From a virus: a stretch of 64,000 nt of DNA. Positions 4,937 to 58,978 of the stretch are shown here, piece by piece (positions within the stretch are counted from its first letter, which is position 1; each line of letters begins with the position of its first letter). The position numbers and the translations under genes are program-made. The stretch lies in UHGV virus genome UHGV-0287696; one strand, given 5' to 3'. The notes beneath the pieces are model-generated. The model saw only the letters and a list, made by a program, of their open reading frames with translations, had not been told where the DNA came from and made no database searches.

Positions 4937-4976
4937 TTTAAGATATATTTCATCTATGTGAGAATTCTCACTTAAC
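4937..4976 (+). promoter_or_regulatory. promoter-like box (divergent copy) with leader hairpin
   Basis: tttaagatatatttcatc...gtgagaattctcac-ttaactaaa; related to the AGATATAT boxes at 18790, 22591, 54647 and 58936; sits about 20 nt upstream of the ATG at 4995. Confidence 0.35.
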
Positions 4977-4994
4977 TAAATGGAGTAATCTAAA

Positions 4995-5264
4995 ATGGGT
5001 AAGATTTATATTGTTGAAAAACGTGCAGGTAATGTTCTTTCCTATTACGAAGAAGGTAAACCTGAAAAGGTTAAAACACTCAAACTCGACGGCTTCAATG
5101 TGAAGAGTTTACGTAAGGGTGTGAAGATTACCTTTAAAGGTCTGATTCGCGCAGGTAACTTGCAGATTGTTAAGGACGACGGCACGATGGTTGCGTTAGC
5201 ACCGGCCAGTGCTGCGAAAACGACAGCAGGTTGTGGCTGCTACGGTAGCAGTCGTAAGATTTAA
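4995..5264 (+). CDS. hypothetical protein
   Basis: 89-aa ORF downstream of the promoter-like box; terminator immediately after. Confidence 0.5.
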   Translation: MGKIYIVEKRAGNVLSYYEEGKPEKVKTLKLDGFNVKSLRKGVKITFKGLIRAGNLQIVKDDGTMVALAPASAAKTTAGCGCYGSSRKI

Positions 5265-5270
5265 GCAGTG

Positions 5271-5308
5271 CCCCTCTCTCCGTCTGGAGAGAGGGTACTT
5301 TTATTTTT
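5271..5308 (+). terminator. rho-independent terminator
   Basis: hairpin cccctctctcc-gtct-ggagagaggg plus T-run; near-copy of the terminator at 4207. Confidence 0.75.
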
Positions 5309-5322
5309 CTTCGAGGTGCGTG

Positions 5323-5811
5323 ATGACAACGGTATTAGTAACAAAGGATTACATTTTAGCTGACCGACTTGTGGATTATGCTGGTACGGTTAAAGAATTG
5401 CCCAAACTGCATAAACACAAAAACAAGTTTGTTTTCTACACGGGTGAACGTGTACTGGACACCGAGTTTTGGAAAATGTCGATTACCGCTGCTATAGAAA
5501 AATATTTAGACGAGGATAAACGTAAGAAAGTTGAGCCCCTGTTTGCAGATCTTATCGAAAAAGAGCGAATATACGATCAAATCGTCATTTTTACGGCTAG
5601 AGAAACACATTGGTTGACGTTAGTAGCAGATAAGTTTAAAACGTTTGTAATAAATAAAAATGCGGTTTGGACAACGGGTTCTGGTGGCGGCTTTGCGCGG
5701 GCTGCTTGGGCAACTGGAATATCAGAAAAGAAAATTATGCCATTGGTAGGTTCTATTGATCCATCTAGCTCGACCACCTATGACTTATTTTACAGGAAGC
5801 ACTTACGATGA
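5323..5811 (+). CDS. hypothetical protein
   Basis: ORF track frame 5209..5811 begins inside the preceding gene and terminator; first ATG after the terminator is 5323 with GAGG upstream. Confidence 0.5.
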   Translation: MTTVLVTKDYILADRLVDYAGTVKELPKLHKHKNKFVFYTGERVLDTEFWKMSITAAIEKYLDEDKRKKVEPLFADLIEKERIYDQIVIFTARETHWLTLVADKFKTFVINKNAVWTTGSGGGFARAAWATGISEKKIMPLVGSIDPSSSTTYDLFYRKHLR

Positions 5812-6329
5812 AGATAAACGCTGTCTTAATTGGCGATGAAATATTCGTTAATACAAAAACACAATATCTGTATTACGAAGGTATTACTGTAATAGACGAT
5901 TATTACGGTAAGTACGGTTGGTGGATTCCGTCCCCTAACTCCTTACGATTAGAAGAAGCATTAACTGCTGAAGAGAACAAACTAGAAGGAGAGTGGACTT
6001 ATATTAGTTCTATAATTGATGTTAGTGGACGTATTAAAGACGTCTACTGGGCTAAAGAGTCAGGGTGGCGTGTTACGCTACACCAACCAACACCAGTAAG
6101 ATTGTTGTACGACCATTCGGATAGTTCAGAGTTAGCGTTTACCATTGAGACGCTCTCGGTACGTAAGGATCTAGACAACGTAGGGAAAGGGAAGTGGTCT
6201 ATTGAGCGCATTGAGGAGATTCTCAGCCACTTTAAAGCTAACAACCAATTTAAACGTTGGTGCACATTACCTGAGTTAGTAGAGGAGTTGAAAAAGCGGG
6301 ATTGCAAACCGCTACCTTTTAACCCGTAG
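5808..6329 (+). CDS. hypothetical protein
   Basis: 173-aa ORF; ATGA start/stop overlap with the upstream gene. Confidence 0.5.
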   Translation: MKINAVLIGDEIFVNTKTQYLYYEGITVIDDYYGKYGWWIPSPNSLRLEEALTAEENKLEGEWTYISSIIDVSGRIKDVYWAKESGWRVTLHQPTPVRLLYDHSDSSELAFTIETLSVRKDLDNVGKGKWSIERIEEILSHFKANNQFKRWCTLPELVEELKKRDCKPLPFNP

Positions 6330-6375
6330 TCTTTTTTACAACTGCGGCTATTTTAATGATTAGGAGAATATAGAG

Positions 6376-6771
6376 ATGACCGCAATAATAGGTATAATGT
6401 CAAGAAAAGCTGATGTCATTAAGACATTTATCGACCAATATAACAACTCACCGTATACGCGTCTTAGATTGCGTAAACCCCAGAATAGCACCGAATGGGT
6501 TCGCTGGTTTAATATTTGGGATAAAACAATAAGTAAAATCAATCCGTTATTCAGAATTAGGATTGAGCCTGCTTATTGGATTGTAATGGAAATATCGCTA
6601 TTACGTATTCTCGAAAAACGTCCTATAGACGTAAAGACGATGTTTGGGGTAGATACGTATAAAATGTTGAACAATGGTTTTGTGGGTAATGGGGAACACA
6701 CATTGTATCAAGCGATGTTGGAAATGTGTTTGTTCGATTTAGTTACTTACGAATTGGGGATTTCAAAATGA
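6376..6771 (+). CDS. hypothetical protein
   Basis: 131-aa ORF; GGAGAA Shine-Dalgarno. Confidence 0.5.
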   Translation: MTAIIGIMSRKADVIKTFIDQYNNSPYTRLRLRKPQNSTEWVRWFNIWDKTISKINPLFRIRIEPAYWIVMEISLLRILEKRPIDVKTMFGVDTYKMLNNGFVGNGEHTLYQAMLEMCLFDLVTYELGISK

Positions 6772-7232
6772 ATTACTTCGAATCTAAAGAAATTGTTGAG
6801 TTGTTTAAACAGCGTGAGAAAACTGCTTTCCGTGACTTGTACGATTCTGATTATCGCCCACTGTTTGCGGTATTAATGCGACTGGATAAAGAACCCGAAG
6901 TCGCGTTAGCAGAGGTACAGCACCACCACGTCAGTTTCGTATTAACCGAAAACATGAGTCGGTGGGTAGATGGTATGCTGATCCGTATTGGGCTCTTGGA
7001 AACGCCGCATCGTTGGGAAGTGGTTATTCAGAAATCACTATTCCCACGGGAAGACATTTTCAACAAATATCGTCCGAAGCAGTATTACAATCACGACGGG
7101 TCACCAAAACGTCCTTTCCTGGCACCCCAACATTTTGTAACCTACGTAACACTACGTTATAAAGACACTGTGGTGCCGTTTGACACCTATCTGGAAATGC
7201 GTGAGATAATTTTAGGGAAGAATCCAACATGA
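6768..7232 (+). CDS. hypothetical protein
   Basis: ORF track frame 6726..7232; internal ATG at 6768 overlaps the upstream stop (ATGA) and is the likelier start. Confidence 0.45.
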   Translation: MNYFESKEIVELFKQREKTAFRDLYDSDYRPLFAVLMRLDKEPEVALAEVQHHHVSFVLTENMSRWVDGMLIRIGLLETPHRWEVVIQKSLFPREDIFNKYRPKQYYNHDGSPKRPFLAPQHFVTYVTLRYKDTVVPFDTYLEMREIILGKNPT

Positions 7233-57447: not shown

Positions 57448-57473
57448 TAAGTGAAAATACACTTTCTCTAACT

Positions 57474-57499
57474 GCCGCGCTTTAGTCGCGGCTTTTGTT
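57474..57499 (+). terminator. rho-independent terminator
   Basis: hairpin gccgcgc-tttag-tcgcggc followed by ttttgtt. Confidence 0.6.
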
Positions 57500-57514
57500 A
57501 AGAAGGAAATAGAA

Positions 57515-58288
57515 ATGAAAGTCCATTTAGACGATATCTTTAAAACCGAACCGTATATGATCGAAGGTTCGCTAACATCACTACTATTTGCCGATAGATT
57601 AGATCGTACGCTGCAATTACAATCGGTCGAATCTGCACCCGTTGATGATGTAGAGCGTTACGAGCGCATCAACCATACGCGGGGTGAGTATCGTCGCTAT
57701 AAGCCAAATTCACTAAACATCAAGCTTTGGCAAGTGGGCACAGGTAAGGTATTAACTTATCGCGCTGTTGGTAGTTATTACATTCAACAAGCCAAAGAGT
57801 GGTTAGAAAAAGTTAAAGAACTGAACTTCGATCTACTGAGCAAAAAACTGCGCGATCATAACGCCAGTTTGCCGATACGTAATTATTTCTCCACGATTGA
57901 AAATAGTCGATGCTTCGTTTCACGTGAAACCACGATATTACCTGGGGCTGATGTTCAGACGACACTAAAAGATGTGGTTGTGAAGAAAATCTTTCATGAA
58001 TCTGAACACGTTGGATTTCGTATCTATTTAACGCACAAGAGACCATTTACCGTGATTCACGTTGTTACCGCACCCGAAGGCTCAGCGGTTATTCGAGAAC
58101 TTCCTGATGCTCGAGACCGTTGCCCTAATGAGCCGCTTTATTTAATGTCAGGAACAAAATCAACCGCGTTGATGTCCCGTTACAGCATGTTAGATGTTGT
58201 TGACGCTGCTATGAAACTGGGTTGGAAAGAAGTGCAGCAACATGGTAAACAATTGCTGTTTATTGCCGATGTAAAACTTAATCAATAG
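57515..58288 (+). CDS. member of a tandem four-gene paralog family
   Basis: 257 aa; C-terminus MKLGWKEVQQHGKQLLFIADV. Confidence 0.6.
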   Translation: MKVHLDDIFKTEPYMIEGSLTSLLFADRLDRTLQLQSVESAPVDDVERYERINHTRGEYRRYKPNSLNIKLWQVGTGKVLTYRAVGSYYIQQAKEWLEKVKELNFDLLSKKLRDHNASLPIRNYFSTIENSRCFVSRETTILPGADVQTTLKDVVVKKIFHESEHVGFRIYLTHKRPFTVIHVVTAPEGSAVIRELPDARDRCPNEPLYLMSGTKSTALMSRYSMLDVVDAAMKLGWKEVQQHGKQLLFIADVKLNQ

Positions 58289-58300
58289 TGAGGTGGTACC

Positions 58301-58879
58301 GTGTACCGATTAATAGAAATGCGAAAAGACGTTTGGTTGGAAAACCTCGTCGATGGGGAGCTTGAGGGAATAGAGCTTTCCTTACCAGAAAGAGCGGACA
58401 CGGTATTGGTCTTTCTGATAAAACAGGCAGCGAAGGAACCGGTAGGAATCTTCAGCGTGGACTATAAAGACCCACGAGGGATTCATTTACGGAACATTTG
58501 CAGTGGTTTAGAAAGCTTACCGGCTAATCCGTTCTTAAACTACGCAAAACGTAAACTCCAGCCAGGGCAACATCTCTGGGTAGTTCTAGCGCCTGATACA
58601 CGCATTATACGTGACGACCTGACTGCGTTTGTCCAAGCAACGAAAGTCAGTTTGTACAATCCTAATGCGGATCGTACCGATATGCCGTTTACAATCACCT
58701 TAGAAGACGATGGAACGCAAGAGGGTATTGAGGCAATTACGGAATTAGTAAACTCTTATCCGGTAGCGTCTATTGAGTTAGAAAACCCAAACCGATTACC
58801 GTTGGGTGATTTACTCGAATGGATTGAGCTGAATACCGAGTTCCTCATTAACTCCCGGCAGTACCGGTTCGATGTATAA
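58301..58879 (+). CDS. hypothetical protein
   Basis: 192 aa; GTG start with GAGGTGG upstream. Confidence 0.5.
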   Translation: MYRLIEMRKDVWLENLVDGELEGIELSLPERADTVLVFLIKQAAKEPVGIFSVDYKDPRGIHLRNICSGLESLPANPFLNYAKRKLQPGQHLWVVLAPDTRIIRDDLTAFVQATKVSLYNPNADRTDMPFTITLEDDGTQEGIEAITELVNSYPVASIELENPNRLPLGDLLEWIELNTEFLINSRQYRFDV

Positions 58880-58884
58880 CATCG

Positions 58885-58917
58885 GTGGGGGTTTACCCCC
58901 ACCTTTTATTTTTTTGT
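58885..58917 (+). terminator. rho-independent terminator
   Basis: hairpin ggtggggg-ttta-cccccacc followed by a long T-run. Confidence 0.85.
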
Positions 58918-58935
58918 TCGTTAATATTAAAAATA

Positions 58936-58978
58936 ATTTCAGATATATATTACTTAAGTGAGAGTTACGATTAACTCT
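58936..58978 (+). promoter_or_regulatory. promoter-like box ATTTCAGATATATATTACTTAAGTGAGAG with leader hairpin
   Basis: fifth copy of the box; hairpin agagtta-cgat-taactct; ATG at 59010. Confidence 0.5.

What the first reader, a model, noticed from the sequence alone, without database searches (positions are those of the whole stretch)
4937..58978. Five copies of a roughly 28-nt intergenic box (TTTCAGATATATATTACTTAAGTGAGAG), each followed by a stem-loop
Copies at 4937, 18790, 22591, 54647 and 58936 lie 20-60 nt upstream of plus-strand starts (or in a divergent region), often straight after a terminator. The 22591 and 58936 copies are nearly identical over about 35 nt including the AT-rich upstream tract. 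This is the signature of a phage-specific promoter class with a structured 5' leader; the sigma factor or polymerase is not evident from sequence.
Basis: seen in the sequence. Interest (0 to 1): 0.65.

Follow-up and report, generated by a model that had tools for sequence, protein, structure and literature searches.

The report
Jumbo-phage early promoters with 5' hairpins
The five repeated boxes are copies of the already-known early promoter that giant phiKZ-like phages use with the RNA polymerase they carry in the virion, here in an uncultured relative of Salmonella phage SPN3US; each is followed by a conserved hairpin at the very 5' end of the predicted transcript.

Summary
Five co-oriented copies (21-28 of 28 identities) are the only matches in the window, and all lie in the 5.9% of the window that is intergenic.

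The window comes from an uncultured jumbo phage. It is collinear with Salmonella phage SPN3US and 93-97% identical to a 225-kb IMG/VR contig that encodes a phage multisubunit RNA polymerase subunit.

The box fits, nearly base for base, the published early-promoter consensus of phiKZ-like phages: TATATTAC near -10, TTTCAGA near -20, an A/T block near -30, and a G six bases downstream as the start. In phiKZ and AR9, promoters of this class are attributed to the virion-packaged polymerase. So this is a known kind of element, and the window adds new members.

The stem-loop is also real. Across about 60 non-identical instances from related phages the stem begins at the predicted +1. It shows compensatory changes in 6 of 7 pairs and many G-U pairs, so it acts in RNA. 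It is consistent in the SPN3US/Erwinia-phage lineage but patchy in more distant jumbo phages. None of the papers I could read mention it.

My best guess for its role is protection of early mRNA 5' ends from RppH and RNase E. That is inference, not a demonstrated result.

The parts
4924..4964 (+). Early-promoter copy 1, degenerate (-36 to +5). Box 4937-4964 TTTAAGATATATTTCATCTATGTGAGAA; predicted +1 is G4960.
   Evidence: 21/28 identities. Independent PWM score 19.8 bits against a shuffle maximum of 6.2. Covariance-model (CM) hit 29.2 bits, E=0.0011. SPN3US has a degenerate box (TTTCAGATAGATGTTAT) at the orthologous position, upstream of gp154.
4960..4969 (+). 5' hairpin of transcript 1 (GAG-AAUU-CUC). 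The DNA palindrome GTGAGAATTCTCAC spans 4958-4971. The leader runs to ATG 4995.
   Evidence: RNAfold. This is the weakest of the five hairpins.
5272..5295 (+). Terminator-like hairpin directly after the first gene downstream of copy 1.
   Evidence: 10-bp stem with 7 GC pairs, followed by a T-rich tail.
10167..10198 (+). Strong terminator-like hairpin. It probably ends the early unit that starts at copy 1, just ahead of the virion and tail-fibre genes.
   Evidence: 13-bp stem followed by TTTTTATTTT. The downstream ORFs match SPN3US virion protein and tail-fibre families.
18744..18789 (+). Intrinsic-terminator-like hairpin plus T tract. It ends the tail-fibre module and abuts copy 2.
   Evidence: 13-bp stem with 8 GC pairs, then TTCTTTTTTT.
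18776..18816 (+). Early-promoter copy 2. Box 18789-18816; predicted +1 is G18812.
   Evidence: 23/28 identities. PWM score 34.6 bits. It is orthologous in position to the SPN3US site at 109912, which follows the tail protein gene.
18814..18830 (+). 5' hairpin of transcript 2 (GAGCG-AAAUUUA-CGUUC), starting at +3. ATG at 18864.
   Evidence: RNAfold -4.5 kcal/mol.
22579..22619 (+). Early-promoter copy 3. Box 22592-22619; predicted +1 is G22615.
   Evidence: 27/28 identities. PWM score 62.3 bits. It is the only part of window 22000-26000 that megablast matches in 34 jumbo-phage records. It is orthologous in position to the SPN3US site at 114005.
22615..22632 (+). 5' hairpin of transcript 3 (GAGAGU-ACAAAA-GCUCUC), starting at +1. 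ATG at 22664.
   Evidence: RNAfold -8.3 kcal/mol. CM hit 45 bits.
22953..22975 (+). Terminator-like hairpin after the first gene downstream of copy 3.
   Evidence: 10-bp stem with 6 GC pairs.
54636..54676 (+). Early-promoter copy 4, in the divergent region next to the baseplate gene. Box 54649-54676; predicted +1 is G54672.
   Evidence: 24/28 identities. PWM score 36.5 bits. CM hit 26.4 bits.
54675..54703 (+). 5'-proximal hairpin of transcript 4 (11-bp stem, starting at +4).
   Evidence: RNAfold -16.4 kcal/mol.
54672..54942 (+). 271-nt untranslated, highly structured leader transcribed from copy 4.
   Evidence: MFE -89.6 kcal/mol, z=-4.03. No ORF of 33 aa or more on the + strand. No Rfam family or tRNA.
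58884..58912 (+). Intrinsic-terminator-like hairpin plus T tract, upstream of copy 5.
   Evidence: 8-bp stem with 7 GC pairs, then TTTTATTTTT.
58924..58964 (+). Early-promoter copy 5. Box 58937-58964; predicted +1 is G58960.
   Evidence: 28/28 identities. PWM score 61.3 bits. CM hit 58.8 bits. It is orthologous in position to the SPN3US site at 165706.
58960..58979 (+). 5' hairpin of transcript 5 (GAGAGUUA-CGAU-UAACUCUU), starting at +1. ATG at 59010.
   Evidence: RNAfold -6.5 kcal/mol.

Best explanation
Each box is an early promoter of a phiKZ-related, SPN3US-like jumbo phage. By homology with phiKZ, 201phi2-1, OBP, N1M2 and AR9, it is recognised by the multisubunit RNA polymerase that is packaged in the virion and injected with the DNA.

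The promoter spans about -36 to +5: an A/T block with GATTA-like bases near -30, TTTCAGA at -23 to -17, TATATTAC at -14 to -7, and a G start six bases after the C.

The transcript begins GAGAG. Its first 18-30 nt fold into a hairpin whose stem starts at or within a few bases of +1. I infer that this hairpin mainly shields the triphosphate 5' end of early mRNAs from RppH and from 5'-end-dependent RNase E attack.

The transcripts encode small proteins of unknown function. Two units start right after a terminator, and two have a terminator-like hairpin after their first gene.

What is shown and what is inferred. Shown here: the motif, its significance, its intergenic and co-oriented placement, its conservation across phages, and hairpin covariation anchored at the predicted +1. 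Inferred from the literature on relatives: the identity of the polymerase, early timing and the exact start site. Inferred from general RNA-decay knowledge: the stabilising role.
For: Motif identity.
- The consensus (A/T)5-TTTCAGATATATATTAC-TTAAGTG matches the published predicted early promoters of N1M2 (TBYAWWWWWTTTCARRYAKATATTATYWAAGTGWA), OBP, 201phi2-1 (..TTTRARR_BTATATTACDWHDGTG) and phiKZ (TATATTAC) (PMC7058600).
- It also matches AR9's mapped early consensus AAATATATATTAT-(6N)-G+1. In phiKZ and phiR1-37 the start lies 6 nt downstream of the element (PMC5312081).
- Conserved -10, -20 and -30 blocks are reported for 201phi2-1 and phiKZ (PMC11512511).
- A review states that every polymerase-encoding jumbo phage has such a motif upstream of its early operons (PMC7598289).

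Phage identity.
- Window proteins are 41-81% identical to SPN3US proteins and collinear with them.
- The window is 93-97% identical to IMGVR_UViG_3300029126_000001. That contig encodes an RNAP beta-like subunit 76% identical to the SPN3US one.

Specificity.
- There are exactly five sites, all on the + strand and all intergenic.
- The box is the only DNA in window 22000-26000 that megablast matches in 34 related phage records, at 86-100% identity. It occurs at 3-5 places per genome.
- Copies 1, 2, 3 and 5 sit at positions orthologous to SPN3US sites.
- The downstream genes are hypothetical proteins, as reported for 201phi2-1 early promoters.

Hairpin.
- RNA from +1 to +30 has a mean z of -2.13, against about 0 for control segments. 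The 5' end is paired in 66% of instances, against 14-34% in controls.
- Stem length peaks when the 5' arm starts at the predicted +1. In a chimera control, 0 of 5000 resamplings reached the observed value.
- On the covariance-model alignment, 93% of cells are paired against 78% in shuffles. Six of 7 pairs show changes on both sides, and no shuffle (0 of 500) reached the observed covariation score.
- The first pair is G-U in 40 sequences and G-C in 20, and the reverse-complement strand folds less well (z -0.97). Both point to function in RNA.

Stabilising role. 5' secondary structure stabilises E. coli mRNAs because RppH and RNase E need single-stranded 5' ends (PMC3997798).
Against: - No transcript 5' end was measured for this phage or, as far as I could find, for SPN3US.
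- No RNA polymerase gene lies inside the window itself; the link goes through a near-identical contig.
- Copy 1 deviates at 7 of 28 positions, including the TATATTAC core. In AR9 a single deviation abolished early-promoter activity, so copy 1 may be weak, inactive or of another class.
- The hairpin is not general. In diverse jumbo contigs with the ATATTAT-type promoter, only 15% have a stem of at least 6 bp starting at +1.
- Hairpins 2 and 4 start at +3 and +4 and leave a few unpaired bases. The stabilisation role is untested.
- The covariance-model alignment is fitted to the structure, which inflates pairing.
Confidence: 0.85

Rival explanations
1. The box is a strong host sigma-70 early promoter, as in T4. 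TATATT would be the -10 element, a TTGATT/TTAATA-like hexamer the -35, and transcription would be by host RNA polymerase.
For: TATATT lies about 8-9 nt upstream of the predicted start. Some relatives have a TTGATT-like hexamer 17 nt upstream of it (consensus). Copy 3 scores 9 of 12 in the sigma-70 scan.
Against: - Only one of the five copies reaches the scan threshold, and sigma-70-like sites are not enriched (12 found against 11.1 expected, 10 against 10.5, 24 against 31.7).
- Conservation covers 17 or more contiguous bases, including the spacer and the start region, which sigma-70 does not require.
- The same motif is kept in phages of Pseudomonas, Salmonella, Erwinia, Klebsiella and Bacillus.
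- phiKZ-type infection is independent of host polymerase (rifampicin-insensitive), and AR9 early transcription does not need new protein synthesis.
Confidence: 0.04
2. The box is a promoter for the second, non-virion phage polymerase (middle or late class), not for the virion enzyme.
For: The polymerase was assigned only by homology of the motif. Degenerate copies such as copy 1 could belong to another temporal class.
Against: - Mapped non-virion promoters look different: TATG at the start, or a weak AT-rich motif at -24 (described elsewhere as TACT at about -22), in phiKZ; AACA-(6N)-TA/G in AR9.
- The TATATTAC/ATATATTAT-(6N)-G motif is the experimentally mapped early class.
- None of the five copies precedes a minus-strand virion gene block.
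Confidence: 0.05
3. The repeated box plus hairpin is mainly a recombination cassette or a protein-binding/regulatory repeat, analogous to T4 PeSL elements. Any promoter activity would be secondary or absent.
For: An indel between the window and its 97%-identical relative starts exactly at +6 of copy 5. The relative carries a copy-3-type leader plus an extra 123-aa ORF there. Two copies form terminator-plus-box composites like PeSLs (PMC4122927).
Against: - Only one junction was examined.
- PeSLs are themselves functional promoters, so this reading adds to the promoter reading and does not replace it.
- Strict orientation with the downstream genes and the fixed distance to a Shine-Dalgarno sequence and ATG fit a promoter.
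Confidence: 0.03
4. The hairpin is not mainly a decay shield. It could help the virion polymerase clear the promoter or avoid R-loops, pause or attenuate transcription, bind a phage or host factor (for example for mRNA handling out of the early infection vesicle), or tune translation.
For: - The 5' arm (GAGAG/GAGAT) is itself conserved as initially transcribed sequence, so the structure is coupled to the promoter.
- The hairpin is lineage-specific rather than universal. A general decay shield would not obviously be lineage-specific.
- AR9 early 5' ends behaved unusually on TEX (terminator exonuclease) treatment.
Against: - Loop sequences and distal stem bases vary freely with compensation. This argues against sequence-specific protein recognition beyond the conserved 5' arm.
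- The Shine-Dalgarno sequence lies 20 nt or more downstream and outside the hairpin, so direct translational occlusion is unlikely.
Confidence: 0.3

Closest known systems
Early (virion RNA polymerase) promoters of phiKZ-related jumbo phages: phiKZ, 201phi2-1, OBP, N1M2, EL, phiR1-37, AR9
   Same: The sequence fits nearly base for base: an A/T block, TTTCA(R)(R), (T)ATATTA(C/T), and a G start 6 nt downstream. Both have conserved -10, -20 and -30 blocks, lie in intergenic DNA and precede operons of hypothetical proteins. The related genome encodes split beta/beta' polymerase subunits.
   Different: These copies come from an uncultured SPN3US-like phage, and no transcript mapping exists for this lineage in the papers I could search. 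The +1-anchored RNA hairpin, which is consistent here, is not mentioned in those papers and is only patchy in more distant clades.
T7-type single-subunit polymerase promoters with a GGGAGA start and a 5' stem-loop leader (from my own knowledge, not checked here)
   Same: A long, nearly invariant phage-specific promoter that extends into the initially transcribed purine-rich sequence. The transcript 5' end folds into a stem-loop.
   Different: The polymerase is a split multisubunit enzyme related to cellular polymerases, not a T7-like single subunit. There is no sequence similarity to T7, T3 or SP6 promoters.
PeSL (promoter-early stem-loop) cassettes of T4-like phages (PMC2839356, PMC4122927)
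   Same: A short repeated composite of an early promoter and a stem-loop or terminator that flanks small variable genes. One indel junction relative to a close relative lies exactly at a box.
   Different: PeSL promoters are sigma-70 early promoters, and their stem-loop is the upstream terminator. Here the promoter is not of the sigma-70 type, and the conserved hairpin lies downstream of +1, in the RNA.
N4 virion RNA polymerase hairpin promoters (PMC4496689)
   Same: A virion-injected polymerase transcribes early genes from conserved promoters that are associated with a hairpin.
   Different: In N4 the hairpin is a DNA structure upstream of the start and is itself the recognition element. Here it lies downstream of +1, is rich in G-U pairs (so it acts in RNA), and the upstream element is an unstructured AT-rich sequence.
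5'-terminal stem-loop mRNA stabilisers in enterobacteria, such as ompA and papA (reviewed in PMC3997798)
   Same: A hairpin at or within a few nucleotides of the 5' end, with free variation in loop and stem sequence.
   Different: Here the hairpin is attached systematically to one promoter class of a phage. Its stabilising effect has not been tested.

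Membership tests
phiKZ-like jumbo-phage early (vRNAP) promoter | Highly conserved AT-rich element of about 10 nt centred near -10 (TATATTAC / ATATATTAT) | tested here: met
   TATATTAC is exact in copies 2, 3 and 5. It is TATTTTAC in copy 4 and TATTTCAT in copy 1. Consensus taken from PMC7058600 and PMC5312081.
phiKZ-like jumbo-phage early (vRNAP) promoter | Conserved start (G) 6 nt downstream of the element | tested here: inconclusive
   A G is present at that position in all five copies, and the hairpin offset profile peaks there. The real 5' end cannot be measured with these tools.
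phiKZ-like jumbo-phage early (vRNAP) promoter | Additional conserved blocks near -20 and -30 | tested here: met
   TTTCAGA at -23 to -17 and an A/T block with conserved A and T at -34, -32 and -29 (information content). This matches the 201phi2-1, OBP and N1M2 motifs.
phiKZ-like jumbo-phage early (vRNAP) promoter | Intergenic, co-oriented with and upstream of operons of mostly hypothetical genes; absent before late virion genes | tested here: met
   All five copies are intergenic and on the + strand. Downstream genes have no known function. There is no copy in the minus-strand virion block at 29.4-54.6 kb.
phiKZ-like jumbo-phage early (vRNAP) promoter | The genome encodes a virion multisubunit RNA polymerase | tested here: inconclusive
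   Met only indirectly. No polymerase gene lies in the window. The 93-97% identical contig IMGVR_UViG_3300029126_000001 carries a beta-like subunit 76% identical to SPN3US ACQ60_gp025. SPN3US annotation lists 8 RNAP subunit genes.
phiKZ-like jumbo-phage early (vRNAP) promoter | Transcription immediately after infection, independent of host polymerase and of new protein synthesis | not testable with these tools
   This needs infection experiments. It has been shown for phiKZ and AR9 only.
Sigma-70 promoter | -35 and -10 hexamers with a 16-18 nt spacer | tested here: not met
   Only copy 3 reaches 9 of 12. Copies 2, 4 and 5 are not called, and there is no enrichment over shuffles.
N4-type vRNAP hairpin promoter | Short DNA hairpin upstream of the start serving as the recognition element | tested here: not met
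   The hairpins lie at +1 to +32. The first pair is G-U in 40 of 63 sequences, and the reverse strand folds less well.
PeSL cassette (T4-like phages) | Composite of terminator stem-loop and sigma-70 early promoter flanking indels in variable regions | tested here: inconclusive
   Two of the five copies are terminator-plus-box composites. One indel junction lies at copy 5. The promoter is not of the sigma-70 type.
Rfam RNA families / tRNA | Match to a curated covariance model | tested here: not met
   No match at gathering score in the window. There is only a chance-level U5 hit in 54600-55000. No tRNA.

The most novel reading that the evidence does not exclude
In the SPN3US/Erwinia jumbo-phage lineage, the hairpin that starts exactly at +1 may be an obligatory, co-evolving part of the early transcription unit with a specific function beyond passive stabilisation. 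It could be required for promoter clearance by the sigma-less virion polymerase, or it could act as a tag that marks early mRNAs for handling or export from the early infection vesicle. The promoter-hairpin units may also double as recombination junctions that shuffle early genes.
Probability: 0.15. Interest if true: 0.6.

Novelty: new member of a known kind. Interest (0 to 1): 0.3.

Why it matters
The boxes let the early transcription units of an uncultured 225-kb phage be annotated from sequence alone. They separate early operons from the late tail-fibre and virion modules.

The near-invariant promoter of about 40 nt, shared by phages whose proteins are only 40-50% identical, is a ready-made template for studying how the sigma-less virion polymerase finds promoters. 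The papers read here leave that mechanism open.

The covarying 5'-terminal hairpin is a testable determinant of early mRNA fate in SPN3US, which can be grown and manipulated genetically. The promoter and hairpin together may also be useful as an expression part.

Tried and rejected
- Sigma-70 promoter reading: rejected. Only one of five copies passes a lenient scan, and there is no enrichment.
- Known RNA family or tRNA in or after the boxes: none.
- N4-like DNA-hairpin promoter: rejected on hairpin position and G-U content.
- Hairpin as a universal feature of jumbo-phage early transcripts: not supported. It is patchy in 40 diverse ATATTAT-type instances.
- A 14-mer core search with 2 mismatches was barely above chance (4 matches against 0.98 expected; 2 of 100 shuffles reached 4). 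I therefore used longer models.
- A first PWM trained on the window's own copies is circular. I replaced it with one trained on other phages.
- MAFFT inserted gaps in the hairpin when L035 was included. I used a 9-sequence gapless seed for the covariance model.
- Literature searches for the bare string TATATTAC and for longer pieces of the box gave nothing useful.
- The OBP genome paper (PMC3264338) is not held.
- PHROGs and Pfam gave no function for the genes downstream of the boxes.

Full report

The stated 28-mer occurs exactly at 58937-58964 and with one mismatch at 22592-22619. No such match occurred in 100 shuffles. Reading the five regions and aligning them on AGATATAT shows three further, more diverged copies: 54649-54676 (24/28), 18789-18816 (23/28) and 4937-4964 (21/28).

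A weight matrix built from the five copies themselves separates them from everything else (43-54 bits, next best 7), but that test is circular. I therefore trained a second position weight matrix (PWM) only on instances from other phages. It scores the five sites 62.3, 61.3, 36.5, 34.6 and 19.8 bits. The next site in the window scores -5.9, and the best score in 100 dinucleotide shuffles of the window was 6.2.

All five copies are on the + strand. All five lie in the 5.9% of the annotated window that is not coding, which has a chance probability of about 7e-7. The 22591 and 58936 copies are identical at 36 of 38 positions, including the upstream A/T tract.

Four copies end 30-46 nt before an ATG preceded by a Shine-Dalgarno sequence. 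The 54649 copy is in a divergent region, 268 nt from the next ORF. Only two copies (18789 and 58937) directly follow a terminator-like hairpin plus T run, so 'often straight after a terminator' is an overstatement. Otherwise the description is accurate.

**2. What genome is this?**

Megablast of window 22000-26000 against about 50,000 phage records matched nothing except the box itself. That match, at 86-100% identity, appeared in 34 records of jumbo phages of about 240 kb: Salmonella SPN3US and its relatives, and Erwinia phiEaH2, Asesino and Stratton. A more sensitive search found the box at 3-5 places per genome in 76 records, nearly always in unannotated DNA.

The large minus-strand ORFs belong to virion-protein families and are 41-50% identical to proteins of Erwinia pEa_SNUABM_29, Salmonella SPAsTU and SPN3US. 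A local tblastn of 73 window ORFs against SPN3US shows that the window is collinear with SPN3US 95.8-168.8 kb.

An exact scan of IMG/VR for TTTCAGATATATATTAC returned 84 loci, mostly from contigs of 200-246 kb. Two loci from IMGVR_UViG_3300029126_000001 (225 kb) are 93-97% identical to the window over about 14 kb each. That contig encodes an RNA polymerase beta-like subunit 76% identical to SPN3US ACQ60_gp025. The window therefore comes from an uncultured SPN3US-like, phiKZ-related jumbo phage of a lineage that carries phage multisubunit RNA polymerases. No polymerase gene lies within the window itself.

**3. What is the box?**

The published predicted early promoters are as follows (PMC7058600 Table 2):

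- N1M2: TBYAWWWWWTTTCARRYAKATATTATYWAAGTGWA
- OBP: BSHAWWWWWTTTYARRYAKATATTATYWWADTG
- 201phi2-1: TTAWTAVAA_HYWTTTRARR_BTATATTACDWHDGTG
- phiKZ: TATATTAC

The window consensus AATAATTTCAGATATATATTACTTAAGTGAGAG fits these almost base for base.

For AR9, transcript mapping gave the early consensus AAATATATATTAT-(6N)-G(+1). phiKZ and phiR1-37 also start 6 nt downstream of the element. Early AR9 transcription does not need new protein synthesis and is assigned to the virion polymerase (PMC5312081). In phiKZ, 28-32 early promoters with this AT-rich element were mapped (PMC8244752, PMC10914365, PMC13282480). 201phi2-1 early promoters have conserved -10, -20 and -30 blocks and precede hypothetical genes (PMC11512511). 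A review states that such a motif can be found in every polymerase-encoding jumbo phage upstream of its presumed early operons (PMC7598289).

Applying the 6-nt rule puts +1 at G4960, G18812, G22615, G54672 and G58960. That places TATATTAC at -14 to -7, TTTCAGA at -23 to -17, and a partly conserved A/T block around -34 to -28 (information content).

The genes downstream of the boxes have no Pfam hit and at most 'unknown function' PHROGs.

Copies 2, 3 and 5 lie at positions orthologous to SPN3US PWM hits at 109912, 114005 and 165706. Copy 1 lies where SPN3US has a degenerate TTTCAGATAGATGTTAT box, upstream of gp154.

The boxes also partition the map sensibly:

- Copy 1 starts a block of small genes that ends at a 13-bp terminator-like hairpin at 10167-10198.
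- Virion and tail-fibre genes follow, up to the terminator at 18744-18772.
- Copies 2 and 3 then start further blocks of small genes.
- The minus-strand virion block at 29.4-54.6 kb has no copy.

**4. The stem-loop**

With the predicted starts, the first 18-32 nt of each of the five RNAs fold into a hairpin that begins at +1 (copies 1, 3 and 5), +3 (copy 2) or +4 (copy 4). I tested whether this is more than an impression in five ways.

- **Folding energy.** I used non-redundant canonical instances from the IMG/VR loci. RNA from +1 to +30 has a mean z of -2.13 against dinucleotide shuffles, and 66% of instances have a paired 5' end. Three control segments gave z near 0 and 14-34% paired. The reverse complement folds less well (z -0.97).
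- **Compensatory variants.** Listing the best contiguous stems shows many compensating versions that start exactly at the predicted G: GAGATTAG/TTAATCTT, GAGCATTGA/TCAATGCTT, GATTAGT/ACTAATC, GGACGA/TCGTCC, GATAGA/TCTATC.
- **Anchoring at +1.** Mean stem length peaks when the 5' arm starts at +1 (5.02 bp, with 44% of stems at least 6 bp). Chimeras that join one instance's first 9 nt to another's downstream sequence reach 3.92 bp (17% at least 6 bp). None of 5000 resamplings matched the real value.
- **Covariance model.** A covariance model (CM, model R1) of promoter plus a 7-bp stem found 73 matches in 905 kb, including four of the five window copies. On that alignment 93.0% of cells pair against 78.3% in shuffles. 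Six of 7 pairs have changes on both sides. The covariation score is 0.246 against 0.105, reached by 0 of 500 shuffles. Sliding the 3' partner by 1-3 columns drops pairing to 38-70%. This alignment is fitted to the structure, so the numbers lean towards it. The chimera test is free of that bias.
- **RNA or DNA.** The first pair is G-U in 40 sequences and G-C in 20. Together with the strand asymmetry, this points to an RNA structure rather than a DNA cruciform.

The hairpin is not universal. In 40 non-redundant ATATTAT-type (OBP/N1M2-like) promoters from diverse jumbo contigs, only 15% have a stem of at least 6 bp starting at +1. Several of the clearest cases come from SPN3US-like contigs that also carry the canonical box. 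None of the six transcription papers I searched for 'hairpin' or 'stem-loop', or read in the passages on early promoters, mention a 5'-terminal hairpin on early transcripts. I cannot exclude that papers not held do.

**5. How it most likely works**

The virion polymerase, injected with the DNA, recognises the element spanning about -36 to +5 and starts at the G. The transcript begins GAGAG, and its 5' end is sequestered in a hairpin once about 20-30 nt have emerged.

RppH and the 5'-end-dependent route of RNase E both need single-stranded 5' ends, and 5' structure is a long-known stabiliser of E. coli mRNAs (PMC3997798). The simplest role for the hairpin is therefore to protect the first phage messages while the host decay machinery is still intact. 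This step is inference.

The alternatives are listed as a rival explanation with 0.3 weight: help with promoter clearance, pausing, factor binding, or mRNA handling out of the early infection vesicle. The free variation of the loop and distal stem argues against sequence-specific recognition beyond the conserved 5' arm.

**6. Rival explanations for the box**

- **Sigma-70 promoter.** TATATT could serve as a -10 element, but only copy 3 reaches 9 of 12 in a lenient scan. Sigma-70-like sites are not enriched anywhere in the regions scanned. In addition, 17 or more invariant contiguous bases shared by phages of different host genera is not sigma-70 behaviour.
- **Non-virion polymerase promoter.** This is unlikely because the mapped promoters of that enzyme are different: TATG at the start, or a weak AT-rich motif at about -24 (described elsewhere as TACT at about -22), in phiKZ, and AACA-(6N)-TA/G in AR9.
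- **Recombination cassette.** This reading has one supporting observation (section 8) but is compatible with promoter function.

**7. Comparison with what is known, and novelty**

The box is a member of the known class of phiKZ-like early promoters. The membership table lists six defining features:

- Sequence, block architecture and genomic placement were tested here and met.
- The G at the start position is present, but a real 5' end could not be measured, so that feature is inconclusive.
- The polymerase gene was found only through the near-identical contig, so I also rate that feature inconclusive.
- Early timing and independence from the host polymerase cannot be tested with these tools.

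The element works like a T7-type promoter with a structured leader, but with an unrelated multisubunit enzyme. It resembles T4 PeSL cassettes in being a repeated promoter plus stem-loop unit, but it is not of the sigma-70 type. It differs from N4 hairpin promoters, where the hairpin is upstream DNA.

My verdict is a new member of a known kind, with modest interest. The less-described part is the lineage-specific, covarying 5'-terminal hairpin.

**8. Other things seen**

- Copy 4 drives a 271-nt untranslated leader that is strongly structured (MFE -89.6 kcal/mol, z -4.03). It has no Rfam match. Part of it is conserved in SPN3US 161.47-161.55 kb, with one compensatory change in a GGTATAC/GTATACC hairpin.
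- Relative to the window, the 97%-identical contig has 448 nt where the window has 30 nt, starting exactly at +6 of copy 5. The extra DNA is a copy-3-type leader plus a 123-aa ORF.
- Two nearly identical terminator-like hairpins lie at 4207-4230 and 5272-5295. One at 22953-22975 follows the first gene after copy 3.

Noticed in passing
window 54672-54942: Box 4 is followed by a 271-nt stretch with no credible ORF. It folds very stably (MFE -89.6 kcal/mol, z=-4.03) and has no Rfam or tRNA match. About 70 nt of it is conserved in SPN3US (161480-161549), with one compensatory change in a GGTATAC/GTATACC hairpin. It is a candidate 5'UTR-derived small RNA like those reported for phiKZ.
   Followed up: partly
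window 58965-58996 versus L024 9531-9980: The window and its 97%-identical IMG/VR relative differ by an indel that begins exactly at +6 of promoter copy 5. The relative has a copy-3-type leader plus an extra 123-aa ORF (448 nt) where the window has 30 nt. This suggests that the promoter boxes act as recombination junctions, as PeSL cassettes do in T4-like phages.
   Followed up: partly
window 4207-4230 and 5272-5295: Two nearly identical terminator-like hairpins (CCCTCTCTCCGTYTGGAGAGAGGG followed by a T-rich tail). The second lies directly after the first gene downstream of box 1 and inside the mechanically called ORF 5209-5811, whose GTG start is therefore doubtful.
   Followed up: no
window 22953-22975: A terminator-like hairpin (10-bp stem) lies directly after the 88-aa first gene downstream of box 3. 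Together with 5272-5295, this suggests short first cistrons followed by partial termination.
   Followed up: no
window 18818-18830; SPN3US 109912 and 92559 leaders (L087, L086): The leader after box 2 shares the string AAATTTACGTT with two SPN3US early leaders that follow degenerate GATAGAT(A/G)TTAT boxes. This is a conserved leader sequence beyond the hairpin.
   Followed up: no
window 4937-4964; SPN3US 100810-100840, 109890-109912, 161915-161938: There is a degenerate box subclass (GATAGATGTTAT / GATAGATGTCAT / GATATATTTCAT followed by CT.AGTGA). Window copy 1 and the SPN3US site upstream of gp154 are orthologous in position. These may be weaker or differently timed promoters.
   Followed up: partly
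window 26039-27377 then 27439-29304: Collinearity with SPN3US jumps from about 118.4 kb to 135.4 kb. The window lacks most of SPN3US's block of about 17 kb of paralogous virion structural protein genes.
   Followed up: no
window 32433-34662 (-): Two adjacent radical-SAM-domain genes inside the virion-gene block are among the most conserved genes in the window (81% and 69% amino-acid identity to SPN3US gp103 and gp102).
   Followed up: no
window 10992-15590 (+): A 1532-aa tail-fibre protein matches dozens of tail-fibre PHROGs through repeated segments. Its only SPN3US match is 41 residues long, so the receptor-binding module has been replaced relative to SPN3US.
   Followed up: no
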